DNA from: an uncultured Candidatus Saccharibacteria bacterium
Lineage (GTDB): Bacteria > Patescibacteriota > Minisyncoccia > Phycocordibacterales > UBA918
Assembly: GCA_964350645.1 (NCBI GenBank)
Contig: CAYGJY010000002.1
Location: 340,936 to 404,935 of the forward strand
DNA length: 64,000 bases
Direction of reading: 5' to 3'
The notes beneath the pieces were generated by a model. It had not been told where the DNA came from, ran no database searches, and saw only the letters and a list, made by a program, of their open reading frames with translations. This document shows positions 24,592 through 46,745 of the stretch, one piece after another; position 1 is the stretch's first letter; the number at the start of each line of letters is the position of its first letter. A program made the translations under genes and the position numbers.

Positions 24592-24715
24592 TATAAATAA
24601 GAAAGAGCTCATGGGGTCTTTCTTGTTAAGAAAGAACCATGAGCTCTGAGTTTCGGTGTCCGCCCTACGGGCGGCCACCGACTGTTTGGTTGAGGAAGAA
24701 CAAAGGGGATCGTCA

Positions 24716-25594
24716 TCATCCCCCTGTGCAGGTTGGGCTATCCTTCGACAGAGCGCTTATGCTCGTGACTTCAGGACTTGCCTTGATTTTATAGAGGCGA
24801 AGCTCGGGAAAGTACTCCGTCCGATCTTCCAGCTCCGCCTGGTCGGCGAAGCTATCAAAGCGGAGGCATCCCTGGTCGGGAATCTTGACCAGGAAGTCGA
24901 CCCCCGCGATGAAGATCATTTGACTCCCTACGGTCGGTTCGACCGGGATAGCGCCGACTTCGGTGTAGACGATGACCGCCACACCCTCGACCACCCGGAT
25001 CTCAAATCCGGGCGTCTTCATCACGTCCGCCAGCTCGACCTCTGCGTCAGACTGGAAGGGGTTGATATCCCAGCCAGTCAATCGCTCAATCGGTGCCTGC
25101 AAAGCGATGAGGAGGTGAAAGAAAATCACCAGGCCGGCAAACCAGAACACGATCCGTTCGAAGATCTTGCCAGGAATCTTCGAATTGGCCATTACTGCTC
25201 CAATAAGAAGGCCAAAGCAATACGTGTACCAGAAGGACATCGGCGCATCCTCGAAAGGAATCACCGATAAGTAGCCGAAGGTCCACCAGATGGCGATAAG
25301 AACACCATAGATAGCCTTGGCAAGGGTGTTGAGGCCGCTTTTGGCGCCCGCGACTCGATTTGTGTTGATGAGGGATCCCAGTCCCATAAAGGTCAGGACC
25401 GGCGTTGGCCCCAGGCCTTTGAAGATCACCCACATTCCTCCGAGGAGGAAGAACACTAGGTTCATCCACTTTACCCCGGCGATGTTAAGGCCCCAGCCGA
25501 TGATAACCATCAACTGAGACATAACCAGGATGATCAAGAGGGCTGTCCGCCAGTTGCTGGCGTAGGCCCCTAAGATCGATTTTGGAGTTGCCAT
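24716..25594 (-). CDS. polytopic membrane protein of unknown function (about 7 TM helices + about 100-aa C-terminal soluble domain), GC-elevated cassette gene 2
   Basis: Multiple hydrophobic segments (LLIILVMSQLMVIIGWGL, LVFFLLGGMWVIF, VLIAIWWTFGYLSVI, FGLLIGAVMA, FWFAGLVIFFHLLIAL). Sampled GC about 55-60% versus about 45-50% in the flanks. Confidence 0.6.
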   Translation of the reverse strand: MATPKSILGAYASNWRTALLIILVMSQLMVIIGWGLNIAGVKWMNLVFFLLGGMWVIFKGLGPTPVLTFMGLGSLINTNRVAGAKSGLNTLAKAIYGVLIAIWWTFGYLSVIPFEDAPMSFWYTYCFGLLIGAVMANSKIPGKIFERIVFWFAGLVIFFHLLIALQAPIERLTGWDINPFQSDAEVELADVMKTPGFEIRVVEGVAVIVYTEVGAIPVEPTVGSQMIFIAGVDFLVKIPDQGCLRFDSFADQAELEDRTEYFPELRLYKIKASPEVTSISALSKDSPTCTGG

Positions 25595-25604
25595 GTTTTT
25601 TCCT

Positions 25605-26363
25605 TTACAGTTTGTCTGCGAGCATACGGAGGGTGCGTTTTATTACCCCTTCTTTTGAAGCTCGCATGTTGAGTCTGGTGCGATGTGCTCGTGTTGCACC
25701 AGCAACACGAGCAACCGCGCGATGTCTTCCGTTCCAGGCGGTCCTCACTCTGTCGTAGAGCGTTGTTTCGTCTGGGTCGGGCATATGGGGTAGACCCATC
25801 GCCCGTAGGTAGGCTGACACTGCCGCGTAGCCCGCGGCGGTATCGGGAGAGTTTTCGATCCGGCGGGCAAGCCCGCGCAAAAAGGTCAGCCCTCTGTCTG
25901 TAGAGTTCGCGTACGTCGGCCCGTTCCACTCGAACGAGATCGTGTTGGCGGGATTGCTTGGATCGACGAAGCTGAACTTCGACGTTGCGTCCCCGGTCTT
26001 TGCCGGGGTTACATCCATCCCGACAACAAATACTCGAAACTCTTCGAGTGCCTGACGAGCTTTCGCCCGCTCGAAGATGTCGCTCGCAGAGATTTTGAAC
26101 TCGAAAGGGATATACCCTTCTATGTGCGCTCTGTAACGAGCACTCAATCTCTCGACTAGGAGGCTGAACCTCCGTTCGTCGGTCCAGTCGGATTCTCCTC
26201 CCTCGTGAAGTTGTTCGACTCCAGGTTCTTCGTCTTTCTTCTTTTTTCCGAAGAGGTTGATGTGTCCACCACCAAAGTGGCGCAGACCTGAATCGAGCAA
26301 TGAGCCGATTTCAACGAGCTCCCAGACTTTGCGTGCCCAGTTTGTTTTACTGTCGTCTGCCAT
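25605..26363 (-). CDS. hypothetical soluble protein (about 252 aa), GC-elevated cassette gene 1
   Basis: ATG (MADDSKTNWARK…) at 26363; the track start is 26381. 11-nt gap to the downstream membrane-protein gene. No recognisable motif. Confidence 0.55.
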   Translation of the reverse strand: MADDSKTNWARKVWELVEIGSLLDSGLRHFGGGHINLFGKKKKDEEPGVEQLHEGGESDWTDERRFSLLVERLSARYRAHIEGYIPFEFKISASDIFERAKARQALEEFRVFVVGMDVTPAKTGDATSKFSFVDPSNPANTISFEWNGPTYANSTDRGLTFLRGLARRIENSPDTAAGYAAVSAYLRAMGLPHMPDPDETTLYDRVRTAWNGRHRAVARVAGATRAHRTRLNMRASKEGVIKRTLRMLADKL

Positions 26364-26616
26364 GATATGTTCCCTTTTCAAGGATCTGTGCGGGGCCGAG
26401 GCCCTGCGTTGGTTTCTGTGGTCATCCCACTCTTTTCCAGTGCATTCCTTGGCCTCTCGTTAGAGAAGACGGAGTGCATTGGAAAATAGAGTGGGTCCAC
26501 TCAATCGATATAATAGCACAAAATTGACATAAAGTCAAGTAAATAGCCTTACAAATACGGCTTATAATAAGGTTAGATTGCTTATTTTTTCATTTTCTCC
26601 TATACTAGCCCACACT

Positions 26617-27645
26617 ATGAAGAAAGATCTCCGACCACGTGAAGAACAAAAGGCAGCTGTTGGTACTGACGGTATTCCGCGAGTTACCTTGTCATTTTAT
26701 AAATATGTCCACTTCGCCAGCCCAGAAGCGGTGCGTACAGAGCTTGTGGAGCGTTTTGGGGGTCTAGGTTGCTTAGGACGGATCTATGTTGCTCACGAGG
26801 GGATTAACGCGCAAATGAACGTTCCGGCGGAGCAGTTTGGACAGTTCCAGGCGTATTTAAAATCACGTGAATGGGGACGTGATATTCCTTTGAAGATCGC
26901 AGTTGAAGAAGGTGAGGCGCCGTCGTTTTATAAACTTACGATTAAGGTGCGGCCAAAGATCGTGGCTGATGGTCTTGATGACGCTAGTTTTGATGTGACT
27001 GATACTGGTGCGTATCTGACCGCACGTGAGATCAACGAGTACGTTGATGATCCTGAGGCAGTTGTAGTAGATATGCGCAATGCCTATGAAAGTGAAGTGG
27101 GACATTTTGAAGGCGCGGTGACACCAGATGTTGATACCTTTCGCGAAGAGTTGGCAGTTGCACCGGAGCTGCTAAAAATCCACAAGAACAAAAAGATTGC
27201 CCTCTACTGTACTGGCGGGATTCGCTGCGAGAAGGCCAGCGCCTGGTTGAAACACAATGGCTATACCGATGTACGACATCTCAAAGGTGGCATTATCGAC
27301 TACAAACACCAGGTTGAGCGAGAGGGTTTACCTAATAAATTTAAAGGCAAAAACTTCGTTTTTGATGAACGTCTCGGAGAGCGGATTGGTACTGAAATAA
27401 TTTCAGTCTGTCACCTGTGTAGTTCGGAAAAAAGTGATACCCATTATCATTGCAAGAACCAAGCCTGTCACGCGCTCTTTTTGGGTTGCGATCGATGTAT
27501 GAAACACAAGCGCGGTTATTGCTCGTATGTCTGTATGGCTTTTGACCAGTTGCCCAAATCAGCCAAGAAGTTGTTGACGCGGAAGAATTACATCCATAAA
27601 CCAGATCAATTCAAGAAACATCGCTTACGTAAGCGTATTGGGTAA
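26617..27645 (+). CDS. trhO: rhodanese-domain protein of the UPF0176/YceA (tRNA U34 hydroxylase TrhO-like) family
   Basis: Rhodanese active-site loop LYCTGGIRCEKASAWL. About 340 aa with an N-terminal alpha/beta domain and a Cys-rich C-terminus (CHLCSSEKSDTHYHCKNQAC…CDRC), the YceA architecture. Confidence 0.65.
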   Translation: MKKDLRPREEQKAAVGTDGIPRVTLSFYKYVHFASPEAVRTELVERFGGLGCLGRIYVAHEGINAQMNVPAEQFGQFQAYLKSREWGRDIPLKIAVEEGEAPSFYKLTIKVRPKIVADGLDDASFDVTDTGAYLTAREINEYVDDPEAVVVDMRNAYESEVGHFEGAVTPDVDTFREELAVAPELLKIHKNKKIALYCTGGIRCEKASAWLKHNGYTDVRHLKGGIIDYKHQVEREGLPNKFKGKNFVFDERLGERIGTEIISVCHLCSSEKSDTHYHCKNQACHALFLGCDRCMKHKRGYCSYVCMAFDQLPKSAKKLLTRKNYIHKPDQFKKHRLRKRIG

Positions 27646-27686: not shown

Positions 27687-27807
27687 TGTGAGGCCAGGAC
27701 GAGATTCTTTCATTACATGAACAGTGTAGGTTGTCGCTTTACAAGCAGGCAACCTTTTCGAATCTCTTGGCCAAAATAAAACCACACTAACGTGCAGTTT
27801 TACTTTG

Positions 27808-27880
27808 AGGCCAGGACGAGATTCGAACCCGTGCGTGTCGGTTTTGCAAACCGATGCGTTAACCACTTCGCCACCTGGCC
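27808..27880 (-). tRNA. tRNA-Cys (anticodon GCA)
   Basis: Minus-strand cloverleaf GGCCAGGTGGCGAAGTGGTTAACGCATCGGTTTGCAAAACCGACACGCACGGGTTCGAATCTCGTCCTGGCCT. U73 discriminator as expected for Cys. Confidence 0.85.
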
Positions 27881-27949
27881 TAGTGCAGGATACTGTAGCA
27901 TTTTACCCTTACATCACCAAGCATTTGTGCTATGATTGCACCCACTCTT

Positions 27950-28034
27950 GCCCGGGTGGTGGAATCGGTAGACACGAGGGACTTAAAATCCCTTGCCTTA
28001 AAACAGCGTGCGGGTTCAAGTCCCGCCCCGGGCA
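27950..28034 (+). tRNA. tRNA-Leu (anticodon TAA), type II with long variable arm
   Basis: GCCCGGGTGGTGGAATCGGTAGACACGAGGGACTTAAAATCCC… T-arm GCGGGTTCAAGTCCCGC, acceptor CCCGGGC-A. Confidence 0.85.
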
Positions 28035-28086
28035 CAAAAGTCTTGTTTTAGAGACTTTTATACGGTAGACTCAGGGCCACAAATAT

Positions 28087-28159
28087 CCGCCCTTAGCTCA
28101 GTTGGTAGAGCAGCTCCCTCTTAAGGAGATGGTCCTAGGTTCGAGCCCTAGAGGGCGGA
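28087..28159 (+). tRNA. tRNA-Lys (anticodon CTT)
   Basis: CCGCCCT-TA-GCTCAGTTGGTAGAGC-A-GCTCC-CTCTTAA-GGAGA-TGGTC-CTAGGTTCGAGCCCTAG-AGGGCGG-A. Unusual C1:G72 first pair. Confidence 0.8.
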
Positions 28160-28178
28160 CAACAATCGAATATATTGT

Positions 28179-28260
28179 GCGGGTGTGGCGGAATTGGTAG
28201 ACGCGCTAGTTTTAGGCACTAGTGGAGCAATCTGTGGAGGTTCAAGTCCTCTCGCCCGCA
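28179..28260 (+). tRNA. tRNA-Leu (anticodon TAG), type II
   Basis: GCGGGTGTGGCGGAATTGGTAGACGCGCTAGTTTTAGGCACTAG… T-arm GGAGGTTCAAGTCCTCT, acceptor CGCCCGC-A. Confidence 0.85.
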
Positions 28261-28339
28261 CAGTGTATTTGATTTTGGCAGGCAAGCTGCTGACGACGAG
28301 GGCATCAGTCGATGCGCTACGTGATTATTCTCTCCCAGT

Positions 28340-35479: not shown

Positions 35480-35623
35480 ATGTCGATTTCAAAAGATGCA
35501 GCCGATGAGTTCAAGCGAATTCATAAAGAGAAGTACGATGCAGAGCTTGCTGGTGCAGGAAAACTCATGTCATCGCGGTATCTCCATGACTGGACTTGCT
35601 GTGATATGCGCGTAAAATCTTAA
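35480..35623 (+). CDS. candidate 47-aa upstream ORF translationally coupled to the 1265-aa gene (MSISKDAADEFKRIHKEKYDAELAGAGKLMSSRYLHDWTCCDMRVKS)
   Basis: ATG to TAA ending 4 nt before the ATG of 35627. Below the track cutoff. Confidence 0.25.
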   Translation: MSISKDAADEFKRIHKEKYDAELAGAGKLMSSRYLHDWTCCDMRVKS

Positions 35624-35626
35624 CTA

Positions 35627-38600
35627 ATGGTCAAATGGATTACAGCAACTGAAATTACAGCTTGGGTTAAGCGTGATAGTCGGCGTGCTCAGGAAAAATT
35701 GCCAGAATTGGTCCGCAAGCTGATACAAGCAACCGCATCATCTATAGATAGAATAAACTTTCCGTGCGACGGTAGTGTTACTTCCGGTGGTTGGGATGGG
35801 CATTTGGAAACGAAAGCAAAGACACCCTTTTTCCCAAGCGGACTATCAAAATGGGAAATGGGAGTTGGGGAGTCGTGCGGAAATAAGGCAGACAGTGATT
35901 ATAAGAGCCGGACAGCAGATCCTTTGGATGCTGTACCAGCTGATACTGTCTATGTCCAGGTTTCACCTCAGCCGTGGATAGATCGTGATAATTGGGTGAA
36001 AGCAAAAAAGACTGAGGACATATGGAAAGACGTTCGTGCAATTGGTGCCGACGACCTTGAGTTGTGGCTAGAATCAGCACCTGCAGTAGCATTATGGCTA
36101 GCAAAGGAGATGAAGAAGATCGGCTCTGCAATAAGGGACATAGAAGCTTGGTGGGAATATTGGTCAACCATGACAAATCCCTTTCTCAGTGTCGATCTGG
36201 TTATTTCTGGAAGACAAGACGAGGTCAATGAAATTCATGGGTGGTATAGGAACGGTCCTAATATTTTTGAGATGCAAGGCGATGATGCGCAAGAACCGTT
36301 CGCATTTTTATATTCAGCTCTATCAAAGTTACCGGAAGAAGAATGTCAGAGAGCTTTTTCAAGGTGTGTAGTTGTGGAAACAATTGAGCAGTTACGAGAT
36401 TGCTACGAGTCATTTGTTCATCCTCTAATTATAGCTGTCCCAGCAGAATGCATTGAAGAGGCACATATGGCAGTAAACAAAGGCCATCACGTATTTGTGA
36501 GCGCAAACGCAATGGATCGCTACCGTTATGTGCATAAACTTTCAAGAGCAAAGCGTGAACCAATGCAAGAAGCTTTAGAAAAGTTGGGATTGTCAGAGGC
36601 AGACGCCACTCGTTGTATTCGTAATACAGGGAGAAGCATTCCAGTCATTCGGCGCCAGAGGTTTAAAGCTAGTAACAAGACGCCAGAATGGGCTAAACAA
36701 GAAAATTCAAAGTTTTTACTTCCGGCGTTGTTGGCAGGAGCGTGGACTGATGGACGAGAGGGTGACAAAGAGATGATGGAGGCATTGTCTGGCATGCCTT
36801 ACAGTAAGTTTTCAAAGAGCATAAAGCCATTAACTAAGGTTGAAGACTCTCCCTTAATCAAAGTTGGGCATGTATGGATGTTAAAGTCACCTTTGGATGC
36901 TTGGTTTCTTGCTGCACAGTATTTAGATCAAGACGATTTTACCAATTTTAGACGAGGATTAAGTGCAGTATTAACTGAAACTGATCCAAAGTATGATCTT
37001 CCTTCTAGTGAACGTTGGATGGCAGGTGTAAAAGGTAAAACTCCAAAATGTTCAAGATGGGTTAGGAGGGGGTTGGTAGAGTCGTTAGTTTTGCTCTCAG
37101 TGTATGGTGACAAAATCTCTGAAGAAATTAATTCACCAGAAGATTTTGCGTATTCGGTAGTAAAGGATCTTTTAGATGCGGCTAATACATGGGAGGCATG
37201 GGCTACGCTAAAAGATGTAATGCCACTGCTTGCAGAAGCTTCACCTGATGCATTTATAGATGTTCTTGATGAGAAGATTGATTCTGAAAAAGAAATTTTT
37301 GTTGAGTTGATGAAGGATGATGAAGATCGTTTTGGCTTTGGTGATTGTCGTCACTCAGGCTTGTTATGGGCTTTGGAAAGTATTGCGTGGGACCCAGAAT
37401 ACGTCACCGCCGCGTCAATGGCGCTTTTAAAGTTGGCTCAAATTGATCCTGGTGGAAGATGGTCTAACAGACCACTTGCTAGTCTTACAGACATTTTATT
37501 ACCAGCATTGCCTCAGACTTACGCGAACGCAAAGCAGCGTGTTAAGGTTTACAAAAAGATTATTAAAGAAGACGCCGTGATTGCATGGCAGCTGGCAAGT
37601 AGTCACATGGGTGGTGGTACAGTTTCACCATCGCATTCTTTCCAATGGAGAGATATGGGTGGTGATAGAGGCGCGTTACAGCAAGTGTCGAGTGAGGATT
37701 ACACTGAGTATTTGAAGTCAATGTTTCCTATTTGGGCAGATTTAGTTTGTGTAAACAACTCTACGGTATCAAGTGGCATAGAGGATTTTATTCGGTTACC
37801 CGAAGAAATTAGAAAAAGTCTTGTAAAGAAACTTGACCAGTTAGATAAGAAATCTTTCTCAATTGAGGAAAGGAAGGTTATTTTGCAACACTTGAGACAC
37901 ACTTTAAATTGGATTCTCAATTATGATAAGGAAGAAAATTATAAAAAACACGTTCCGGCACTTAGGAGAGCCTATAATTTGTTAACGCCAGAGGATCCAT
38001 TGGATCGAATTGATTGGTTATTTCAAGACGGTTGGCCAGATTTACCAGAAGCAACAAAAAGACATGATCAACAGGAACGCCTTGAGGAACTTCGGATAGA
38101 GGCGGCGAAAATGCTGCTTGAAGAGGTGTCACTTGGTGCTATTGGAAAGTATGGCTCCGGATTGAATTATCAAGCAGCTTTTGGGTCAGCTTTTGCCAAG
38201 GCTGAAGGGAAAAAACATGATCCGGGTATTGTTAGTGAATTTTCAAAGTACGTAAAAGAAAGTCCATGGTTATTGGTTGGTTATGCGATGGGTTTGTTTG
38301 ATTCTGGTGGACAAAAGGCTGTTTTGGGTCAAATTGAGGTAGTTGAAGCAGGTAAGCTAAAATCACAAGAAAAAATCATTGCGTCACTCTTAAGAGGATT
38401 GCCTGAGCAAAGTGACACATGGTCCATTGTGGAATCTTACGGCGATCGAGTTGGTAAAGAATATTGGCTTTTGGCTTCTGGATATACAAGAAGAGATGAT
38501 CAGAAAAAACATGATGCAGAGTATGCGGTTAAAAAGCTTATTGATGTCGGTAGGCCTGGGGTCGCGGTTCGTATAGCTGGAGATTCACATGGTTCTTTAC

Positions 38601-39424
38601 CAAGTGCACTTCTAAAGCAGGTCCTGTTAGAACTTCTTAACTTAAGTGTTGAAGACAAGAATATGATTGATGGATCAATGTTGGAGTTTTATTTATCAAA
38701 TATATTTGACCAACTGTACAAAAATGACGATCTCACTTTAGAAGAGATTGGAGCTTTGGAGTGGCCATATGCACAAATTTTTGACCACCATCACAAAAGG
38801 ACTAAATCCCCAATGGCTTTGCATCAAAATCTACAAAGCAACCCAGGTTTTTTTGTAGAGCTTTTGTCGTACTTATATAAAAAGGATGATGGTTCAAATT
38901 CTAAGCCGGACAATCTATCAAAAAAACAAGCTGAAAATATTGCAAAGAACGCATACGAAGTTCTCCATACTTGGAGTCTGGTGCCGGGTGTAAGTAGTAG
39001 TGGAGAGGTAGATAAAGAGGTTCTGCGCGAATGGGTCATTACAGCTAGAAAAATGGCCAAAGAGCAAAGTTATTTAAAGGGCTGTGATCTTAAGTTGGCT
39101 GAGATTCTATCTAAAATGCCACAAGATTCAGATGGTGTGTGGCCTCATGTCGCACTGCGTGATCTGCTTGAAGAAGTAAAAAGCTCGATACTTGATAAGC
39201 ACATTCCATTTGCTATCTACAATAGCCGAGGAGTGCGTTCAAAAAGTTTGACGGATGGAGGAAGTGAAGAAAGAAGGTTGGCAGATAAATATATGGCCTG
39301 GTCGAAGGAGTTAAGTGATAACTGGCCGCGTACTTCTAGGGTTCTAAAAAACCTCTCCACTATGTTTAGTAGAGATGCAGAAAGAGAAGACATTGATTCC
39401 CAACTTCACGACTTAGAGTACTAG
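35627..39424 (+). CDS. large (1265 aa) predominantly alpha-helical protein of unknown function, cargo of integrative element
   Basis: Long uninterrupted ORF. No Walker A, HEPN, or nuclease motif recognisable by eye. Cys-containing N-terminal about 150 aa (…INFPCDGSVTSGGWDGHLE…GESCGNKADSDYKSR…). Confidence 0.7.
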   Translation: MVKWITATEITAWVKRDSRRAQEKLPELVRKLIQATASSIDRINFPCDGSVTSGGWDGHLETKAKTPFFPSGLSKWEMGVGESCGNKADSDYKSRTADPLDAVPADTVYVQVSPQPWIDRDNWVKAKKTEDIWKDVRAIGADDLELWLESAPAVALWLAKEMKKIGSAIRDIEAWWEYWSTMTNPFLSVDLVISGRQDEVNEIHGWYRNGPNIFEMQGDDAQEPFAFLYSALSKLPEEECQRAFSRCVVVETIEQLRDCYESFVHPLIIAVPAECIEEAHMAVNKGHHVFVSANAMDRYRYVHKLSRAKREPMQEALEKLGLSEADATRCIRNTGRSIPVIRRQRFKASNKTPEWAKQENSKFLLPALLAGAWTDGREGDKEMMEALSGMPYSKFSKSIKPLTKVEDSPLIKVGHVWMLKSPLDAWFLAAQYLDQDDFTNFRRGLSAVLTETDPKYDLPSSERWMAGVKGKTPKCSRWVRRGLVESLVLLSVYGDKISEEINSPEDFAYSVVKDLLDAANTWEAWATLKDVMPLLAEASPDAFIDVLDEKIDSEKEIFVELMKDDEDRFGFGDCRHSGLLWALESIAWDPEYVTAASMALLKLAQIDPGGRWSNRPLASLTDILLPALPQTYANAKQRVKVYKKIIKEDAVIAWQLASSHMGGGTVSPSHSFQWRDMGGDRGALQQVSSEDYTEYLKSMFPIWADLVCVNNSTVSSGIEDFIRLPEEIRKSLVKKLDQLDKKSFSIEERKVILQHLRHTLNWILNYDKEENYKKHVPALRRAYNLLTPEDPLDRIDWLFQDGWPDLPEATKRHDQQERLEELRIEAAKMLLEEVSLGAIGKYGSGLNYQAAFGSAFAKAEGKKHDPGIVSEFSKYVKESPWLLVGYAMGLFDSGGQKAVLGQIEVVEAGKLKSQEKIIASLLRGLPEQSDTWSIVESYGDRVGKEYWLLASGYTRRDDQKKHDAEYAVKKLIDVGRPGVAVRIAGDSHGSLPSALLKQVLLELLNLSVEDKNMIDGSMLEFYLSNIFDQLYKNDDLTLEEIGALEWPYAQIFDHHHKRTKSPMALHQNLQSNPGFFVELLSYLYKKDDGSNSKPDNLSKKQAENIAKNAYEVLHTWSLVPGVSSSGEVDKEVLREWVITARKMAKEQSYLKGCDLKLAEILSKMPQDSDGVWPHVALRDLLEEVKSSILDKHIPFAIYNSRGVRSKSLTDGGSEERRLADKYMAWSKELSDNWPRTSRVLKNLSTMFSRDAEREDIDSQLHDLEY

Positions 39425-39481
39425 ATAATCTTGAAAGTATTACCTAATTTACCAAAAGTAAAAGAGAAGGCATCAAATCTC

Positions 39482-40102
39482 TTAATAAACATTACGAAAT
39501 TCGTAGTAGCCATAACCAAGAATCTCTTTATTGAATACTACAACACCGTGTACACAGCCTGTTACAGCAGGGTAAAAAGTAAATGACGCTATATCTTCGG
39601 TAGGGTTGTTAATTGGTTGATTCTCAAGAATGCGTATGAGTGTGCTTACAAATGATAGCCATGATTCGTCATTTTTAAAATGCTCAGCGCTGATACCGTT
39701 ATTCCCTGTAGCTTCAAGTATTTCAACACGAAGTTTTTTCATATAGGCGAAATCCATCGATGGTGACTCTGTAGATACAGCCGCAGGATTTTCGATTTGT
39801 TTTTTTGCATCCAAATATATTTCAGACATCATTTGTCGCATGTTTTCAGTGACTCGGTCTTTTTCTGTATGTACCGTCCAGTCACAGTAAAATCTCAAAA
39901 GTGTGTGAGATCCTGTTTTCCAATGGTCACTTTTATGGTCCAGTATCTTTCTCATTTGAACCATGAAGTAAACAACTTCTTTCTCCGAACTGATACAAGG
40001 TATTTCGCCCAGTATTTCATTCAGCTTATGTACTATTTCTAGCTCTGCCATTTGTAGATTAAAGCATAAAAAGAATAGTTGCAGTAGTTTTGACCAAAAC
40101 AC
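39482..40102 (-). CDS. hypothetical protein (element cargo)
   Basis: 206-aa ORF on the opposite strand. An alternative ATG (MAELEIV…) lies at 40048. Confidence 0.5.
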   Translation of the reverse strand: MFWSKLLQLFFLCFNLQMAELEIVHKLNEILGEIPCISSEKEVVYFMVQMRKILDHKSDHWKTGSHTLLRFYCDWTVHTEKDRVTENMRQMMSEIYLDAKKQIENPAAVSTESPSMDFAYMKKLRVEILEATGNNGISAEHFKNDESWLSFVSTLIRILENQPINNPTEDIASFTFYPAVTGCVHGVVVFNKEILGYGYYEFRNVY

Positions 40103-40156
40103 AGCTATATGAGTACAATAGCTTTGAATCTTTGATTCTTATCAAAAATCAAACTT

Positions 40157-40426
40157 ATGGCACGAGGAGGCAAAAGACCAGGCGCCGGTCGTAAAAAAGG
40201 ATATGCAGCAAAGACCGCCGAAGAGACACGGAAAGTTATTGCTGAACTTGTTTCAAAAGATATTACCCCAATCACCAAGGCTTTAATTAAAAAAGCTAAA
40301 CAGGGTGATGTTCGCGCCTCTAGTCTATTGTTTGACAGAGCTTTTGGTAAGCAAACAAATGAACCTAAAAATCAGACCTTTTCTTTTAATGTAGCTGAAA
40401 TGAGGGAGAGGTATAAGCCTGATTAA
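40157..40426 (+). CDS. small basic putative DNA-binding protein with AT-hook-like N-terminus (MARGGKRPGAGRKKG…)
   Basis: 89 aa. The G-R-P/K-rich N-terminus resembles an AT-hook or phage small DNA-binding protein. Confidence 0.45.
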   Translation: MARGGKRPGAGRKKGYAAKTAEETRKVIAELVSKDITPITKALIKKAKQGDVRASSLLFDRAFGKQTNEPKNQTFSFNVAEMRERYKPD

Positions 40427-40641
40427 AAATTAAGACACCTTAGTGATTTTACTGAATTTGAAGAGCTATATTCATCACAAAATCGAGCTTGGTAGTATGT
40501 TTCTTCCCAATATCTGCTTTCGGTAGTATCAATTGTTTTGTAACTGATTCCTTGAAGTTCTATTATTAAAATTGTCAGTAGTATCAGAATGCCTAATTTG
40601 AACCAGTTTCTACTAATGAAAGATAAGATTTGTTTTTTCAT
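40423..40641 (-). CDS. small hypothetical membrane/secreted protein
   Basis: 72 aa with an N-terminal hydrophobic helix. AT-rich. Confidence 0.3.
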   Translation of the reverse strand: MKKQILSFISRNWFKLGILILLTILIIELQGISYKTIDTTESRYWEETYYQARFCDEYSSSNSVKSLRCLNF

Positions 40642-40903
40642 GTGTATTAATTATTGGGATATACAAAAAGCCCACTGCTAAAAGGTAGGACGTGAGTCCA
40701 CATGATCAGTTTCCCAAACATGACACAGAACGTGACCCCGTTAACAGCGGGTTCTTTATCGTTCTGTGGTTAACTTATTCGCACCATATCGCCAGCGAAC
40801 TGTCGGGTTAGGTGACTATATTGTTTAAGTAGTATTACACTGGCGTTTCCTGATTGCAATGTTTTTTAATCAGCATAAGATTAGTTTCTAAATGTAGATG
40901 TAA

Positions 40904-41650
40904 ATGAATATCAAGGCGCTTTTACAGAGAATACCCGTAGATTCCAGAATTCGTGAGATAACCAAAAACTATCGCGAAGCTATTGGTGTGCCGCTTGGCG
41001 GCTTTGATTCGTATGAAGATTGGGAATCTTGGTCAGTTAAGGTTGCTAATAAAAAACGGGGACTCAATTTCAATCAATATTTTAGGGAGATTAAAAAAAT
41101 TGTTCCCTACAAAGGAGTGGTTAGCAACAATGCTTTCAAGGGAGTGATATTGGATTTTTATTACATAAAGAATTTTGATGTGGAAGATCAATACCAAAAA
41201 TATCGCTTTGATTTATTTGGTGTAGGTTTAATCCTGAATAAAAAGACTGATGGTTTGAATCTAACTAAAGGAAAGGGACTTGAGGATGGAGTTTACATAC
41301 GAATCCCAAGTAACATTGACCCGAGCGAACTAAAAAAATTTGTGACAGAAAAGAAGGAAGTAATACGGTCCGTTCAGATGTTTTTTAATGAGAACAAAAA
41401 AATTGCTTCACCAAAACTAACGTATTTGAGTGGTCTTGAGCGAGATGAAATAATTTCAGCACTTTATGATTACTCACTAAAGGAGCTGGAAGAAATGACT
41501 GGTTTACCTAGAGAGGGATTAAATAGAGATGATTACACTGCTCTAGTTGTAGAGAAGTACCTTGGATTTAGTCCCACAAGTGGAGCGGCAGTTTTGCAGG
41601 CCAAAAAAAGGTTTCGTAGAAAAGAAAAAGGTCTTTGGGGGGACTACTAA
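40904..41650 (+). CDS. hypothetical protein (element cargo)
   Basis: 248-aa ORF, no motif recognised. Confidence 0.5.
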   Translation: MNIKALLQRIPVDSRIREITKNYREAIGVPLGGFDSYEDWESWSVKVANKKRGLNFNQYFREIKKIVPYKGVVSNNAFKGVILDFYYIKNFDVEDQYQKYRFDLFGVGLILNKKTDGLNLTKGKGLEDGVYIRIPSNIDPSELKKFVTEKKEVIRSVQMFFNENKKIASPKLTYLSGLERDEIISALYDYSLKELEEMTGLPREGLNRDDYTALVVEKYLGFSPTSGAAVLQAKKRFRRKEKGLWGDY

Positions 41651-41707
41651 CAAGTAGTTTATTTGTCCTCCTACTTTGAATGTCCAACTCTACATAGACT
41701 GTAGTTA

Positions 41708-41953
41708 ATGCTGTCGTATAAAGATGAAAATGTATATCAGACTTCTGATTTTGCAGAAGCTATCACTTTAAAATATTTTAGTCATCAAATTAAATTTGTT
41801 GACCGAAGTGAAAAACGGGCTGTTTTTCACTTTTTTCGCAAGGACAATACCCAAGAAGTTTTATCGGCATTTAGAGAGCGCGGTTTGAAGGTCGAGCCTT
41901 TTGCTTTTTACCAATGTGAACGTGAGGTTAAGTCTCGTCTTTATAACGGCTGA
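41708..41953 (+). CDS. hypothetical protein (element cargo)
   Basis: 81-aa ORF. Confidence 0.4.
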   Translation: MLSYKDENVYQTSDFAEAITLKYFSHQIKFVDRSEKRAVFHFFRKDNTQEVLSAFRERGLKVEPFAFYQCEREVKSRLYNG

Positions 41954-41954
41954 T

Positions 41955-42134
41955 ATGGAACTTCCGGAAGAACACATGAAAGAGTTTATCGCTCTATATA
42001 AAAAACACTACGGGGTGGTGCTTAGTCGTGATGAGGCGATACGAAAAGGTAAACAGTTAATGAGATTTGTTGAGATGGTTGAGTTCTCAAGCGATGATGT
42101 AAATGAAAATGACTATGACGTATTTACCCAGTAA
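41955..42134 (+). CDS. hypothetical small protein (element cargo)
   Basis: ATG at 41955 (MELPEEHMKEF…) 2 nt after the previous stop. The track ORF 41901 is N-extended. Confidence 0.3.
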   Translation: MELPEEHMKEFIALYKKHYGVVLSRDEAIRKGKQLMRFVEMVEFSSDDVNENDYDVFTQ

Positions 42135-42936
42135 GGAAATATATTTTAATACTGTACCTCATTACATTAAAGAGGATTTTTATGACGCTTCTAAACCACT
42201 TAATACACCAGAATTTAATTTAATAAACCATTTGAGAGTGGTAGCTAATAAGTTCGGGTACGTCCAAGTTACAGCCGATCAGCTAAGGGGTGACGTTTTT
42301 AGTAATCGGATCAAGAGGTGTAGGGTAAATGATTTACTCTTATCTATACGTAACCAGCAGTATATATGGTACGCAGACAGGAAGGGAAACGGAGGTACTT
42401 TTATAATCCAAAATAACTACTGGCTTGTGGCTGAAGGTATTTGGTATGTCGTTGATGATTCTGCTTGGCATAAAAACGGAGGTAGTGGTTTATGTAGACA
42501 GTTACCCAAAAAGGAGGATGTAATGGAGCTGAAAAATCAAAAACGGATGTTTAGAGAAGGTAATCAGATTGATAGTAAGGGCTATTTTGAACAAAAAGCA
42601 GATGCAGAAAACGGAAGTTCTTATACAGATAACGATACTAATAAAATTTACGATCGTACGAATAAGAAGAAAACTAAGACTAAAGACTTCATTCCTAACT
42701 CAAGTATTGATGATCAGCTACAAAGAATCGCCAAAGAAATAGGCGAAGAGCATATGGGATTCGTATTTTTTATTTATGGTAAGCATGGGGAGGATGGTAT
42801 TTTGATTATGGACAAAATTGCCAGAGATCTACGAGACAAGCAGGGGATAAAGAATAAAGGTGCGTATTTTAATAGTGAGGTGATTAGGGAGCTGCAAACT
42901 GATATCGCCATCCCGGTAGAAAAAGGTAGAATGTAA
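42103..42936 (+). CDS. hypothetical protein (element cargo)
   Basis: 277-aa ORF ending 7 nt before the recombinase gene. Confidence 0.5.
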   Translation: MKMTMTYLPSKEIYFNTVPHYIKEDFYDASKPLNTPEFNLINHLRVVANKFGYVQVTADQLRGDVFSNRIKRCRVNDLLLSIRNQQYIWYADRKGNGGTFIIQNNYWLVAEGIWYVVDDSAWHKNGGSGLCRQLPKKEDVMELKNQKRMFREGNQIDSKGYFEQKADAENGSSYTDNDTNKIYDRTNKKKTKTKDFIPNSSIDDQLQRIAKEIGEEHMGFVFFIYGKHGEDGILIMDKIARDLRDKQGIKNKGAYFNSEVIRELQTDIAIPVEKGRM

Positions 42937-42942
42937 TTAAGT

Positions 42943-44718
42943 ATGTCGTTTCAAGATAGATACAAAGCAAATAAATATTTTCTCTACATACGAAGGTCCC
43001 AAGATGCTGAGGATCGTCAGATGGCGTCACTTGAGGATCAAGAATCTGAAATGCTTTCAATAGCAGATCGTCTTGGACTTGATATTGTCGATACAATTAA
43101 GGAGTCACAATCAGCAAAGAAGCCAGGACGACCGAAATTTAATGAGATGCTTGCTCGCATCCATTCCGGTGAAGCAGATGGAATTCTGTGCTGGAAGATT
43201 AATCGTCTGGCTCGTAATCCAGTTGATGGTGGACAAATCTCTTGGTTATTACAGCAGGAGATTATTAAGCATATACAGACGTATTCGAGAGACTACCAGC
43301 CGACTGACAATGTGATTATGATGGCGGTTGAGCTTGGAATGGCTAATCAGTTTGTTAATGACCTCAGTGTTGATGTAAAGCGTGGAATGAGAAATAAAGC
43401 AGAGCGTGGTTGGAATCCTCAAAGACTATTGCCATCAGGTTACAAACACAATAAGGGATATGAAAAAGGTGAAGCTGAGATACTGAGTACCGATAAGTTG
43501 CCGATAGTTAAAAAACTTTTTACCGATATGCTGACTGGATCGTATTCACCAGCAGATATTCAAAGACTTAGTCAGACATACGGTTTAATGAATAAGTTTG
43601 GAAGACCACTAGCACTTCAAACGATACATAATATGCTCAGTAGTGAGTTTTACTGTGGTTACTACTACTGGAAGGGTCCAGATGGCTCTGAAGTGCGCTA
43701 TAAAGGCAAGCATGAGGTTATTTTGAGTGAAGATGAGTTCAATCAAGTCCAACGCCTTCTAGGTAAAAAAGGAAGGCCTACAAGAGTCAATAAATTAGAC
43801 TTTGCTTTTAGAGGTCCTTTGAACTGCGGAGAGTGTGGATATGCAGTAACAGCCGAAGATAAGGTTAGGACTTTGTGTACTGGATGTCGTTGTAAATTCT
43901 CCTGCAAGACCCAAACAGCATGTCCTAAGTGTGGTTTAGATATTTCAGAAATGAAGAATCCAAAGATTTATCATAATGTGTATTATCACTGTACGAAAAA
44001 GCGTAAAGACATAAAGTGTACTCAGAGTGTTATTGATGAAAAAGTACTGAAGAAACAAGTGTACTCAAAGTTGGGTGAAGTTGAGATTGATAAAGATTTC
44101 TATAATTGGGCTGTTGCAGCTTTAAAACATACTCATGGTGATGAGATGGAGACTCAAAGTGACATTTTGAAACATCTCAATGATCGCTCTGTTTCTATTC
44201 AGGCACGTATTGATAAATTGGTACTAATGAGGGCTGATGGTGAGATTTCTAGTGACCAGCTTGCTCGAATGACTGCTGAAGCAGAAAAGGATCTTAAGGA
44301 GGTTGAGAAGGAGCAGAAGCGTTTGCATGCAAGAATGACGGAGTGGTCCAGTACCGCAGATAAATACCTCACTTTTGCAGATAGGGTACGAAGAAAGTTC
44401 AATAAAGCTTCAAATGAGGAAAAGCGAGAGATGCTAGTGATGTTAGGTTCGACACTCGAAATTACTGATAAAAAATTCAATGTTATAGTCGCGAATGAGC
44501 TTTTAGGTTTCAAAAATGTATCTGTGAAGATAGGCAAGAGATTAGGTAGGTTCGACAATCAAAAAGCCCTTGATATACAAGGACTTTCTGACCAAAAACG
44601 CATGGTTTTTGACGAACTGTGCGCCGGGTTGGATTCGAACCAACGTAGGATAAATCCGACAGGTTTACAGCCTGTTGCAATTGACCACTCTGCCACCGAC
44701 GCGTCTATAAAATTGTGA
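42943..44718 (+). CDS. large serine recombinase (resolvase-domain integrase with recombinase domain, zinc ribbon and coiled-coil)
   Basis: N-terminal resolvase catalytic domain (YIRRSQDAED…GILCWKINRLARN). Cys-rich zinc beta-ribbon (CGECGY…CTGCRCKFSC…CPKCG). C-terminal coiled-coil. The last about 33 codons are antisense to tRNA-Tyr. Confidence 0.8.
   Translation: MSFQDRYKANKYFLYIRRSQDAEDRQMASLEDQESEMLSIADRLGLDIVDTIKESQSAKKPGRPKFNEMLARIHSGEADGILCWKINRLARNPVDGGQISWLLQQEIIKHIQTYSRDYQPTDNVIMMAVELGMANQFVNDLSVDVKRGMRNKAERGWNPQRLLPSGYKHNKGYEKGEAEILSTDKLPIVKKLFTDMLTGSYSPADIQRLSQTYGLMNKFGRPLALQTIHNMLSSEFYCGYYYWKGPDGSEVRYKGKHEVILSEDEFNQVQRLLGKKGRPTRVNKLDFAFRGPLNCGECGYAVTAEDKVRTLCTGCRCKFSCKTQTACPKCGLDISEMKNPKIYHNVYYHCTKKRKDIKCTQSVIDEKVLKKQVYSKLGEVEIDKDFYNWAVAALKHTHGDEMETQSDILKHLNDRSVSIQARIDKLVLMRADGEISSDQLARMTAEAEKDLKEVEKEQKRLHARMTEWSSTADKYLTFADRVRRKFNKASNEEKREMLVMLGSTLEITDKKFNVIVANELLGFKNVSVKIGKRLGRFDNQKALDIQGLSDQKRMVFDELCAGLDSNQRRINPTGLQPVAIDHSATDASIKL
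44620..44702 (-). tRNA. tRNA-Tyr (anticodon GTA), type II
   Basis: Minus-strand GCGTCGG-TG-GCAGAGTGGTCAATTGC-A-ACAGG-CTGTAAA-CCTGT-[CGGATTTATCCTACG]-GTTGGTTCGAATCCAAC-CCGGCGC-A. Entirely inside the 3' end of the recombinase ORF on the opposite strand. Confidence 0.8.
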
Positions 44719-44830
44719 TAGTACAGGTGACCGGTACGTTAGTATCGGCCACCTGTACGGTGCTATAAACTACCATATCTTTTACAATCCGAAAAGTACG
44801 TCTGCCTGTGCTACTATTTTGGTATTACAT

Positions 44831-45835: not shown

Positions 45836-45842
45836 TATCTGT

Positions 45843-46745
45843 ATGAATATGAGTACGTTATTTCGAGGTTTGCTAGTCGTGTTGATTACCACAGTGTTTG
45901 TTACTCCGTCACTCGTGTGGGGAGCTGAAGGGTTGGTTACCTGCGATGGCGTAGCGTCTAAAGGGGTTGAGTGTAATTTCTGTACCTTGGCACAAATGGT
46001 TGAGAAGGTGATTGACTTCATTGTGATAATCCTAGTGCTGATATCGGTGATTATGTTGGCTGTTACGGGTATTCAGATGGCTTATACAGCGGCCGGCAAC
46101 GGTAACGCTCTTGAGGTTCTCAAAGAGCGCATGACTAATATTGTGATTGGATTTTTCCTAATTTTAGCGGCTTGGACATTGGTGGATACGCTAGTAAAAG
46201 TATTGGTGGCAAATACTAGCGATAATGAAGTGGTACTTAGCTGGCGTACATTTGGTATGAGTGCAAGTGACTTGTGTGGCAAAACATTAAAGCCGGTAGA
46301 AGAAGTATTGTACTCAGCTGATTATGAAGCTTCTCTGACACCAGAAGCAGCAGCTGCTGCAGCTGAGGTTTATCCTGCAGGAGTATCGATTGTTCCGGAT
46401 TTAGAGAGTTTGGCGAGTTTACGTGAGGCAGGAGTTGTCGTGGCAGATTGGCATGGTATTGATGGGCCCGGCCGCACAGATAAAGCCCATCCTTCAGTGG
46501 TGAGCGCTGCAGTTAGGATGAATGAGGCGGCGATTGCTGAGTTTGGTAAACCAATATTTCAGATCACGGCCGCCACGACTGATGGAGTAGGGCATAGTGC
46601 AAATAGTCAACATTATAAGGGAACAGCTATTGATTTAGATCCAATCAACGGAGCGACTACAGCTCAGGTAAAGGCTTTGGCTAAGAGTGCTGGTTGTACA
46701 TTTATCCTAGACCATGGTTCTCACGTTCATTGTGATTTTAGGTAG
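45843..46745 (+). CDS. T4SS-pilin-like N-terminal module fused to LAS/M15-type zinc peptidase-like domain (putative peptidoglycan peptidase)
   Basis: N-terminus: signal peptide, Cys pair (CDG…CNFC), two-helix module (…MAYTAAGNGNALEVLKERMTNIVIGFFLILAAWTLV…). C-terminus: …GVGHSANSQHYKGTAIDLD…DHGSHVHCDF (H-x6-D … H-x-H, the LAS metallopeptidase pattern). Confidence 0.6.
   Translation: MNMSTLFRGLLVVLITTVFVTPSLVWGAEGLVTCDGVASKGVECNFCTLAQMVEKVIDFIVIILVLISVIMLAVTGIQMAYTAAGNGNALEVLKERMTNIVIGFFLILAAWTLVDTLVKVLVANTSDNEVVLSWRTFGMSASDLCGKTLKPVEEVLYSADYEASLTPEAAAAAAEVYPAGVSIVPDLESLASLREAGVVVADWHGIDGPGRTDKAHPSVVSAAVRMNEAAIAEFGKPIFQITAATTDGVGHSANSQHYKGTAIDLDPINGATTAQVKALAKSAGCTFILDHGSHVHCDFR

What the first reader, a model, noticed from the sequence alone, without database searches (positions are those of the whole stretch)
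24600..26500. GC-elevated two-gene cassette (unknown soluble protein + polytopic membrane protein) inserted between pilin array and trhO
The minus-strand pair 26363->25605 (about 252 aa soluble) and 25594->24716 (about 7 TM plus a 100-aa C-terminal domain) is separated by 11 nt. Sampled 60-nt blocks have about 55-65% GC and GC-ending codons, against about 40-50% in the neighbouring DNA. Nested inverted repeats lie on one side (24604-24647) and a 22-bp imperfect inverted repeat in the divergent promoter region on the other (26426-26495). Neither protein matches a family I recognise. A soluble sensor or enzyme paired with a membrane effector is the layout of several phage-defence and abortive-infection modules and some toxin/immunity pairs (inference only).
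Basis: partly seen in the sequence, partly recalled or inferred. Interest (0 to 1): 0.7.

Follow-up and report, generated by a model that had tools for sequence, protein, structure and literature searches.

The report
Hypervariable two-gene slot beside pilins
The GC-rich gene pair is real, but it is not a recent insertion: it is this genome's version of a very fast-evolving two-gene membrane module that sits in a fixed, strongly promoted slot at the end of the pilin gene array in a whole clade of ultra-small (Patescibacteria) bacteria, and its function is still unknown.

Summary
Two minus-strand genes, A (252 aa, soluble) and B (292 aa, about 5 TM plus a C-terminal domain), lie 10 nt apart in the most GC-rich 1.8 kb of the window (54.6% against 45.4%). 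GC3 is 0.59 and 0.71 against 0.43±0.07. Neither protein matches Pfam, NCBIfam, PHROGs or PADLOC, and A's model has no fold match.

The "inserted cassette / defence module" reading is only partly supported. In 22 related Patescibacteria loci the same position holds a minus-strand gene pair. A and B have divergent homologues (17-42% identity) there in at least 10 other genomes or contigs, and A is always followed by B. Other relatives carry a different pair, some stomatin/SPFH-like. No mobility genes, flanking repeats, or phage, plasmid or defence homologues were found.

The slot has a near-consensus extended -10 promoter, unique in the window and conserved in relatives whatever the cargo. It also has a structured 5' leader and strong terminator hairpins. 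Raised GC3 recurs in the slot genes of most relatives, so it belongs to the slot.

Best reading: a resident, probably highly expressed, rapidly diversifying membrane complex linked to the VirB2-like pilin cluster. Its function is inferred only.

The parts
26510..26538 (-). Near-consensus extended -10 sigma-70-type promoter of the operon: TTGACT, 17 nt, TGcTATTAT.
   Evidence: Scored 10 of 12 with TG. The pattern TTGACT-N14-TGN-TANNNT has a single match in the 64-kb window against 0.02 expected. The same promoter sits at the slot in 22 of 23 related loci, and only 4 other matches occur in 400 kb.
26364..26503 (-). Structured 5' leader of about 140 nt. The transcription start is inferred at about 7 nt after the -10 element.
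   Evidence: Fold energy -58 kcal/mol, z = -4.76, 0 of 200 shuffles as stable. Leaders of 25 related loci are all more stable than their shuffles: mean z -2.62, p = 2.5e-8. No Rfam family matches.
26418..26500 (-). Leader hairpin P1, a 5'-proximal long stem-loop.
   Evidence: An equivalent 5'-proximal hairpin of different sequence is seen in the relatives. On a hand-built alignment 4 of its 5 basal pairs show compensatory changes (biased by construction).
26390..26407 (-). Leader hairpin P2, GC-rich: GCAGGGCC-TCGG-CCCCGC.
   Evidence: A GC-rich hairpin lies at the same relative place, after an A-rich linker, in most related leaders.
26371..26384 (-). Small hairpin UCCUU-GAAA-AGGGA that pairs the ribosome-binding site. 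It includes the conserved YTTGA(A/C)A box.
   Evidence: Predicted in both the MFE and centroid structures. A TTGA(A/C) box lies 16-30 nt before the start codon in 19 of the 23 related leaders with a usable start. By my reading of the MFE structures, pairing of the ribosome-binding site is predicted in only about 9 of the 25 leaders folded.
25605..26363 (-). Gene A. A 252-aa soluble protein of an undescribed family, with conserved motifs GG-x5-DER, EEFR and G-x-PHMP.
25595..25604 (-). 10-nt spacer AGGAAAAAAC carrying B's ribosome-binding site directly after A's TAA stop codon.
   Evidence: Read from the sequence. Similarly short spacers of 9-16 nt occur in L083, L084, L085, L086, L087, L088, L092 and L093; L089 and L091 have 31 and 24 nt.
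24716..25594 (-). Gene B. A 292-aa polytopic membrane protein with a conserved N-terminal membrane domain of about 190 aa and a variable C-terminal domain of about 125 aa.
   Evidence: A B-family HMM finds the gene downstream of every A homologue that has context (E 2e-19 to 2e-32 on held-out sequences) and none of the partners in other slot types.
24604..24724 (.). Terminator cluster between the convergent B gene and the last pilin gene. Hairpins lie at 24704-24724, 24653-24681 and 24604-24647. On the minus strand the last is followed by UUUCUUAUUUAUAUU.
Evidence: Fold z = -6.57 (minus strand) and -6.31 (plus strand).

Best explanation
A and B are a resident two-gene operon, inherited with its neighbourhood and evolving extremely fast. 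It occupies an ancient, fixed expression slot at the 3' end of the VirB2-like (T4SS_pilin) gene array in a clade of Paceibacteria/Kaiserbacteria-like Patescibacteria.

Shown:
- The slot is framed by a conserved, near-consensus extended -10 promoter plus a structured 5' leader on one side, and by strong terminator hairpins on the other.
- The cargo is always a co-oriented gene pair. In this genome and at least 10 others it is A followed by B. In other relatives it is a different pair, some stomatin/SPFH-like, followed by another polytopic membrane protein.
- Slot genes are GC3-enriched relative to their own genome in most relatives.

Inferred:
- A is cytoplasmic. It has an N-terminal amphipathic helix, an acidic/glycine linker, a compact alpha/beta core and a 50-residue basic C-terminal helix. 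I propose that it docks on the cytoplasmic face of B and may oligomerise.
- B has 5 TM helices with N-in/C-out topology and displays its variable, acidic, two-cysteine C-terminal domain on the cell surface.
- Together they would form an abundant envelope complex, playing the same role as the SPFH-plus-membrane-partner pairs found in the same slot elsewhere.
- The outward-facing part would be diversifying under pressure from hosts or phages.
- The GC3 excess is a property of the slot rather than a mark of recent foreign origin. Candidate causes are selection linked to very high expression or mRNA stability, and recombination-associated GC-biased conversion.
For: Synteny:
- The order MT-SBP-pilin array-[minus-strand pair]-trhO-...-rbfA-infB holds in 21 of 22 related loci.
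- In L007 the slot lies inside the pilin array.
- In L089 the pair stays with the pilin/SBP/MT cluster although trhO is replaced by other genes.
- L091 reproduces the full window context.

Families:
- A has only 11 credible relatives among 1.84 billion representative proteins, after setting aside one spurious hit.
- A is conserved in motif and length.
- B's membrane domain is conserved.
- A and B co-occur strictly.
- A/B identity (23-43%) tracks TrhO identity (62-77%) with no discordantly similar pair.

Expression signals.

Alternative cargo: Pfam Band_7 at 31.1 bits (cut-off 23.6) for the L008 protein and 22.6 bits for the L013 protein. PDB stomatin at E = 0.02.

GC3:
- Window.
- 36 of 40 slot genes in 20 relatives exceed their flank mean, by +0.118 on average. 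The sign test gives p = 2e-7, although the genes are not independent.
- Slot GC3 correlates with the host background, r = 0.55.
- L083 and L087 show the same excess.

No mobile-element or defence signal.
Against: - Function is entirely inferred. There is no homology to any characterised protein, and A's model has no fold match, including to SPFH domains. Profile comparison of A with the other slot proteins is negative.
- The A-B interaction, the topology, high expression and the transcription start are untested.
- Slot types are scattered across single-gene TrhO and SBP trees. That fits repeated replacement at least as well as pure vertical descent.
- The cause of the GC3 excess is unresolved. 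FtsZ, an S1-like protein and the pilins in the window show no excess, and L21 in L089 shows none. This weakens the expression-linked explanation.
- A covariance model of the leader failed to recover held-out leaders.
Confidence: 0.5

Rival explanations
1. The slot is a chromosomal exchange hotspot that hosts interchangeable two-gene conflict modules: anti-phage or abortive-infection systems, or toxin/immunity or exclusion pairs. Under this reading A is a cytoplasmic sensor and B a membrane effector, and the pair is one of several alternative cargos swapped by recombination through the conserved flanks.
For: - At least five mutually unrecognisable upstream protein types occupy the same slot, under the same promoter and leader.
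- The types are interleaved on TrhO and SBP trees.
- Composition deviates from the host genome in nearly every relative.
- A soluble protein plus a membrane protein is a common defence layout. This last point rests on general knowledge, not on a test here.
Against: - PADLOC has no match for A, B or ten proteins of the other types.
- No phage, plasmid or viral-contig relatives were found.
- There are no mobility genes or repeats.
- The A family occurs only in this syntenic context, and its divergence tracks TrhO.
- A constitutive-looking consensus promoter driving a membrane-disrupting effector would be unusual.
- The cargo in some relatives is stomatin-like, which is normally a housekeeping scaffold.
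Confidence: 0.25
2. The pair is an accessory of the VirB2-like pilin / type IV secretion-like surface apparatus. B would be a VirB6-like polytopic platform or anchor for the pilins, and A its cytoplasmic partner.
For: - The pair lies immediately downstream of the pilin array, convergent with it, in every context seen. This includes L089, where trhO is not adjacent, and L007, where the slot lies within the array.
- VirB2-like arrays are known in Patescibacteria and are reported as essential in one cultivated species (bioRxiv 10.1101/2025.01.22.634366).
- B's size and number of membrane helices resemble VirB6. This is from my own knowledge and was not tested.
Against: - No Pfam TrbL/VirB6 or other T4SS match for any B-family member, and no hit to solved T4SS components.
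- The pair is transcribed convergently from its own promoter, not with the pilins.
- No VirB4 or VirD4 was found among the window genes that I scanned.
- Replacement by stomatin-like pairs in relatives is not expected for a core channel subunit.
Confidence: 0.15
3. One reading: a recently acquired foreign cassette, inserted between the pilin array and trhO in this genome.
For: The region has the highest GC and the most deviant codon usage in the window. The k-mer-prefiltered search of 5.8 billion proteins found only self hits.
Against: - Homologous A-B pairs lie at the same position in at least 10 other genomes or contigs.
- The closest A and B (36-42% identity) belong to the contig with one of the closest TrhO proteins.
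- The same GC3 excess is seen in the slot genes of most relatives, whatever the cargo.
- The promoter and leader are conserved across relatives.
- No insertion scars were found.
Confidence: 0.05

Closest known systems
SPFH (stomatin/Band 7) plus membrane-partner operons, such as stomatin-NfeD (PH1511/PH1510) and E. coli qmcA-ybbJ
   Same: Both are two-gene units made of a membrane-associated scaffold-type protein and a polytopic membrane protein with a soluble C-terminal domain. In several relatives the very same slot, with the same promoter and leader, holds a stomatin-like protein plus a membrane protein. A, like SPFH proteins, ends in a long predicted helix.
   Different: A has no SPFH domain by sequence, by profile or by fold, and it has no membrane anchor. 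B has no NfeD match. The analogy rests on position only.
VirB2-like (PF18895 T4SS_pilin) gene arrays of Patescibacteria (bioRxiv 10.1101/2025.01.22.634366)
   Same: The neighbouring array of six small genes, four of which reach the PF18895 cut-off, is of this known kind. The pair is physically linked to the array in every context found.
   Different: As far as I read it, the paper does not describe a conserved convergent two-gene slot, its promoter and leader, or the A and B families. A and B are not T4SS components by any search run here.
Defence islands or hotspots, and two-gene abortive-infection modules (sensor plus membrane effector)
   Same: Variable content at a fixed chromosomal position between conserved genes. 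Deviant composition. A soluble-plus-membrane layout.
   Different: No match to 5,027 PADLOC models. No mobile-element context. One fixed strong promoter and leader drives every cargo. The cargo diverges in step with the genome.
5'-terminal stabilising stem-loops and ribosome-binding-site-sequestering leaders such as fourU-type RNA thermometers
   Same: A stable hairpin begins a few nucleotides from the inferred 5' end. In the window a U/C-rich tract (UCCUU) is predicted to pair with the ribosome-binding site.
   Different: No Rfam family matches. Pairing of the ribosome-binding site is predicted in only about 9 of the 25 related leaders folded. Function is untested.

Membership tests
Known anti-phage defence systems (PADLOC-DB v2) | At least one protein matches a defence-system HMM | tested here: not met
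   No PADLOC hit at E <= 1 for A or B, nor at E <= 0.1 for ten cargo proteins of the other slot types.
Known anti-phage defence systems (PADLOC-DB v2) | Located in a defence island or on a mobile element, next to other defence or mobility genes | tested here: not met
   The flanks are T4SS_pilin genes, an SBP, a methyltransferase, trhO, tRNAs, rbfA and infB. The only recombinase in the window lies 17 kb away, in a separate low-GC island.
Known anti-phage defence systems (PADLOC-DB v2) | Protects against phage, or is toxic on activation | not testable with these tools
   Requires heterologous expression and phage challenge.
Recently acquired genomic island | Base composition and codon usage deviate from the host genome | tested here: met
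   GC 54.6% against 45.4%. GC3 0.71 and 0.59 against 0.43 +/- 0.07. Codon log-likelihood lies below all 31 background genes.
Recently acquired genomic island | Integrase or transposase, flanking direct repeats or terminal inverted repeats, or insertion at a tRNA gene | tested here: not met
   No repeat pair brackets the region. There are no repeats or paralogues elsewhere in the window. The nearest tRNA gene lies beyond trhO.
Recently acquired genomic island | Absent from the same site in related genomes | tested here: not met
   The site is occupied in 21 of 22 related loci. Homologous A-B pairs are found in L004, L005, L017, L022, L023, L025, L083, L087/L088, L089 and L091. No same-species genome was available for comparison.
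SPFH/stomatin-NfeD operon | One partner carries an SPFH (Band 7) domain | tested here: not met
SPFH/stomatin-NfeD operon | The membrane partner has an NfeD-type C-terminal OB-fold domain | tested here: inconclusive
   No NfeD Pfam hit for 8 B-family members.
Type IV secretion VirB6/TrbL | Sequence match to the TrbL/VirB6 family or to solved T4SS inner-membrane components | tested here: not met
   Pfam scan of B and 7 relatives and a B-family profile against PDB sequences: no such hit.
Toxin-antitoxin or toxin/immunity pair | A recognisable toxin or immunity domain | tested here: not met
   Nothing in Pfam, NCBIfam or PADLOC. The one Imm31 hit, to a single B relative at E = 0.2, is noise.
Described structured RNA families (Rfam 15), for the leader | Covariance-model match at or near the gathering score | tested here: not met
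   Only hairpin-type miRNA models matched, at 15-25 bits against gathering scores of 51-105. Nothing matched at the leaders of nine related loci.
Conserved cis-regulatory RNA (new motif), for the leader | Structure conserved through compensatory changes in an unbiased alignment, and recoverable by a covariance model | tested here: inconclusive
   All 25 leaders fold better than their shuffles (mean z -2.62). A hand-built alignment shows 8 of 10 pairs with compensatory changes, but the pairing was used to build that alignment. RNAalifold on a MAFFT alignment found no structure. Model R1 recovered only training sequences plus L007.

The most novel reading that the evidence does not exclude
The locus may be a chromosomal expression platform: one fixed, very strong promoter, a structured leader and a terminator, placed at the end of the VirB2-like pilin array. 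Into it, lineages of ultra-small Patescibacteria would repeatedly exchange GC3-rich two-gene membrane modules. A/B would be a previously undescribed protein pair that forms a surface-exposed complex at the host or phage interface. This would be a cassette-exchange or antigenic-variation-like system in bacteria with minimal genomes, together with a new leader RNA motif and two new protein families.
Probability: 0.25. Interest if true: 0.8.

Novelty: new variant of a known kind. Interest (0 to 1): 0.55.

Why it matters
Patescibacteria have tiny genomes and live attached to other microbes, and little is known about the proteins they put on their surface. This locus combines several features:
- a fixed position beside the pilin array;
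- the only consensus-strength promoter match in 64 kb;
- a structured leader;
- cargo that diverges far faster than its neighbours, or is replaced;
- a GC3 excess that recurs across genomes whose background GC3 ranges from 0.28 to 0.65.

Such a locus is a good candidate for a major host- or phage-facing envelope component. It is also a natural test case for what drives local GC3 enrichment in AT-leaning reduced genomes: selection for expression or mRNA stability, GC-biased conversion at a recombination hotspot, or repeated transfer.

The analysis also defines two protein families with no annotation and a candidate leader RNA absent from Rfam. If the pair turns out to be only a fast-evolving housekeeping membrane complex, the practical lesson still stands. 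Compositional deviance plus 'orphan' proteins is not sufficient evidence of insertion.

Tried and rejected
- **K-mer-prefiltered homologue search.** Single-protein queries and the A-family profile returned only self hits and the L004 protein. The exhaustive HMMER search was needed to find relatives of A.
- **Single-sequence AlphaFold of A.** Unusable, pLDDT 40. The 13-sequence alignment gave a usable model.
- **PDB sequence searches with the family profiles.** Nothing for A or B.
- **A as a diverged SPFH protein, or B as homologous to the other membrane partners.** hhalign probabilities were <= 6.5%. Rejected as untestable at this alignment depth.
- **Mobile-element origin.** No terminal or direct repeats, paralogues, or phage, plasmid or viral-contig hits.
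- **Metagenome scan with A+P0003 patterns.** No relatives found. The larger alignments were too divergent for that tool.
- **Expression-linked codon bias as the cause of high GC3.** Not supported by the few reference genes available: FtsZ, an S1-like protein, the pilins, and L21 in L089. It is not excluded, because no ribosomal-protein operon lies in the window.
- **Strand bias.** Part of the C3 excess reflects it: the ten most C3-rich genes are all on the minus strand. GC3 itself is strand-symmetric, so the excess stands.
- **Leader RNA.** Rfam gave nothing. RNAalifold on a MAFFT alignment gave no structure. A covariance model built from an N-padded hand alignment was too weak, at 0.41 bits per position, to find held-out leaders.
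- **Literature.** Searches for SPFH together with defence or Patescibacteria gave nothing relevant.
Full report
**1. What is at the coordinates**

The window carries two minus-strand ORFs. A runs 26363->25605 (252 aa from the ATG) and B runs 25594->24716 (292 aa). They are separated by 10 nt, TAA-AGGAAAAAAC-ATG, so B's ribosome-binding site follows A's stop codon directly.

The region is the most GC-rich stretch of the window. It reads 54.6% GC over 24600-26400 against a window mean of 45.4%. Sliding 1.8-kb windows have sd 3.2, and this one is the maximum.

The excess sits at third codon positions. GC3 is 0.71 (B) and 0.59 (A) against 0.43 +/- 0.074 for 58 ORFs. Both genes score below every one of 31 background genes in codon log-likelihood. 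The high GC3 in these frames, together with the homologues found later, shows that these are the coding frames. The 204-aa plus-strand ORF at 24656-25270 is an antisense by-product of the GC3-rich frame.

Both sets of inverted repeats are real. Neither protein matches Pfam, NCBIfam, PHROGs or PADLOC.

**2. The organism and the neighbourhood**

TrhO (26617-27645) is at most 74% identical to its best matches, which are MAGs labelled Kaiserbacteria, Paceibacteria or Saccharibacteria. These are ultra-small Patescibacteria. The source contig is 449,760 bp long.

Upstream of the pair lie a methyltransferase, a solute-binding protein and six small genes. Four of the six reach the Pfam cut-off for PF18895 T4SS_pilin. 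Such VirB2-like arrays are already described in Patescibacteria. Downstream lie trhO, four tRNA genes, rbfA and infB.

**3. The pair is not an insertion: the position is an old, occupied slot**

tblastn of the window's proteins against 22 related loci shows a conserved gene order: MT-SBP-pilins-[1.8-3 kb]-trhO-...-rbfA-infB. In 21 of these loci the interval holds minus-strand ORFs, usually two. In L007 the interval lies inside the pilin array.

The A and B families occupy the interval in L004, L005, L017, L022, L023 and L025. An exhaustive HMMER search of 1.84 billion representative proteins found only 12 other hits to A, the best at 41% identity and one of them a spurious 1,052-aa protein.

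Where those proteins have context, the arrangement repeats:
- trhO-A-B-pilins-SBP-MT in L087/L088.
- The full window context in L091.
- trhO-A-B in L083.
- A-B-pilins-SBP-MT without trhO in the marine contig L089.

The pair is therefore linked to the pilin cluster rather than to trhO. A B-family HMM detects the gene downstream of A in all held-out contexts (E 2e-19 to 2e-32) and detects none of the partners in other slot types.

A and B are 23-43% identical between genomes whose TrhO proteins are 62-77% identical. The closest TrhO pairs have the closest A and B, and no pair is discordantly similar. That pattern fits fast divergence in place. It gives no sign of recent transfer.

No repeat pair, mobility gene, paralogue, or phage, plasmid or viral-contig homologue was found.

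**4. But the slot's content is variable**

The other relatives carry different pairs. The upstream proteins form at least four further groups that neither BLAST nor hhalign can join to A.

One group is stomatin/SPFH-like, with Pfam Band_7 at 31.1 bits against a cut-off of 23.6 and PDB stomatin at E = 0.02. A second group is marginal, at 22.6 bits. These proteins are followed by polytopic membrane proteins unrelated to B.

The slot types are interleaved on TrhO and SBP neighbour-joining trees. These are single-gene trees with weak resolution. Either replacement has been repeated, or divergence has gone beyond recognition. None of ten such proteins matches PADLOC.

**5. The slot has its own conserved expression signals**

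On the minus strand at 26538-26510 lies TTGACT-17 nt-TGcTATTAT, a near-consensus extended -10 promoter. The pattern has one match in the 64-kb window, against 0.02 expected.

In 23 related loci (400 kb, both strands), 22 of 26 matches lie exactly upstream of the slot operon, whatever the cargo. In 938 kb of more distant loci there are 3 matches.

A leader of 61-170 nt follows in the relatives where a start codon could be placed; L007 and L021 did not give a usable one. It has a common architecture:
- a purine-rich 5' end;
- a 5'-proximal hairpin, P1;
- an A-rich linker;
- a GC-rich hairpin, P2;
- a YTTGA(A/C)A box 16-30 nt before the start codon;
- the ribosome-binding site.

These elements are visible.

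P2 spans 26390-26407. A small hairpin, UCCUU-GAAA-AGGGA, pairs the ribosome-binding site. The whole leader folds with z = -4.8.

All 25 leaders fold better than dinucleotide shuffles (mean z -2.62, p = 2.5e-8). On a hand-built alignment, 8 of 10 basal pairs show compensatory changes. That alignment was built from the pairing itself, so the count is biased. RNAalifold on a MAFFT alignment found no structure, and a covariance model failed to recover held-out leaders. Covariation is therefore suggestive, not established. No Rfam family matches.

At the other end, three hairpins lie between B's stop codon and the convergent pilin gene: 24704-24724, 24653-24681 and 24604-24647. On the minus strand the last is followed by a U-rich tract. 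They fold with z of about -6.5 on either strand.

**6. The GC3 excess belongs to the slot**

In 20 relatives, 36 of 40 slot genes exceed the mean GC3 of their flanking genes, by +0.118 on average. Individual z-scores reach 9.6. This holds for A/B cargo and for the other types alike. Slot GC3 correlates with the host background (r = 0.55). L083 and L087 show the same excess. L089 lacks the canonical promoter and leader, and it shows no excess.

Random acquisition from within the clade would scatter slot GC3 around the clade mean, not consistently above each host. The cause is unresolved. Three candidates remain:
- **Selection tied to high expression or mRNA stability.** This fits the unique promoter and the NNY-to-NNC shift. 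However, FtsZ, an S1-like protein, the pilins, and L21 in L089 show no such bias.
- **GC-biased conversion at a recombination hotspot.**
- **A GC-richer shared gene pool.**

**7. The proteins**

A has no membrane helix. The model built with a 13-sequence alignment has pLDDT 74.5, with values of 80-97 across most of residues 60-200. It shows a low-confidence N-terminal helix and a disordered acidic/glycine linker. A helical core with one long beta-hairpin follows, and then a basic helix of about 50 residues at the C-terminus. The invariant residues in that alignment are G55, G56, D62, E63, R110, P192 and P195. No solved or viral structure resembles the model.

B has a conserved N-terminal membrane domain and a C-terminal part that varies in length and sequence between relatives. 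The charge distribution argues for 5 membrane helices with N-in/C-out topology: positive loops at residues 1-16, 59-92 and 137-146, and an acidic loop at 113-120. On that reading the acidic, two-cysteine C-terminal domain of about 125 aa faces outward. This topology is my inference from the sequence.

**8. Most likely mechanism**

Shown: one promoter, a tight spacer, strict co-occurrence of A with B, a fixed position beside the pilin cluster, very fast divergence, and replacement by SPFH-like pairs elsewhere.

Inferred: A and B form an abundant membrane complex. A would be a peripheral cytoplasmic scaffold or adaptor, and B would present a rapidly diversifying domain at the cell surface. The complex would be functionally analogous to the scaffold-plus-partner pairs in the same slot. 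I put this at about 0.5.

The rivals are:
- a hotspot for exchangeable conflict modules (0.25);
- a pilus or T4SS accessory (0.15);
- a recent insertion (0.05).

**9. Comparison and novelty**

The pilin array is of a known kind. Variable hotspots and SPFH operons are also known kinds. I could not find the following in the libraries or papers searched: this fixed slot beside the pilin array, its conserved promoter and leader, its recurrent GC3 excess, or the A and B families.

I rate it a new variant of a known kind. Interest is moderate to high because it is a concrete, testable candidate for a host- or phage-facing envelope system in Patescibacteria. Interest is tempered by the complete lack of functional evidence.

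Noticed in passing
window 35600-44720: A low-GC island (36-41% against 45%). It holds large ORFs without any Pfam match, including one of 1,265 aa at 35627-39424. It ends with a large serine recombinase (42943-44718, Resolvase plus Recombinase domains) that overlaps or abuts tRNA-Tyr (44619-44702). This is a much better candidate for an integrated mobile element than the finding itself.
   Followed up: partly
window 44819-46745: Two adjacent genes (338 and 300 aa), each with a signal or TM start and a C-terminal hydrophobic segment that resembles the T4SS_pilin motif by eye. They may be a second set of larger pilin-like genes next to the low-GC island. They were not scanned against Pfam.
   Followed up: no
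window 27807-28261: A cluster of four tRNA genes (Cys on the minus strand; Leu-UAA, Lys-CUU and Leu-UAG on the plus strand) directly downstream of trhO.
   Followed up: no
L007 6497-9207; L006 9180 and 9910: In L007 the variable slot, with its promoter -10 ending at 9052, lies inside the pilin array, with two pilin genes between it and trhO. L006 has two promoter copies upstream of trhO and three minus-strand ORFs in the interval.
   Followed up: partly
L017 5011-6282, L022 7684-9159, L025 568-2040, L019 4486-5388: The long B-family proteins carry an extra conserved extracytoplasmic-looking module (FNPxTGEP...M.DPxTG...P.EC...CFS...AW) followed by further membrane helices. The same module occurs in the L019 partner, which is paired with an SPFH-like type-3 protein. 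The membrane partners therefore appear to shuffle domains.
   Followed up: no
window 24656-25270 (+), 25086-25469 (-), 25570-25929 (-): Long overlapping ORFs in other frames of the cassette. They are expected by-products of high GC3 and should not be annotated as genes.
   Followed up: yes
window 1850-2308 (-): A 152-aa glyoxalase-like ORF. It is the only other gene in the window with GC3 near 0.6 (0.59).
   Followed up: no
window, whole: The ten genes with the highest C/(C+T) at third positions are all on the minus strand, and the cumulative GC skew rises across the stretch profiled (18-33 kb). This indicates strand compositional asymmetry and contributes a little to the cassette's C3 excess.
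   Followed up: partly
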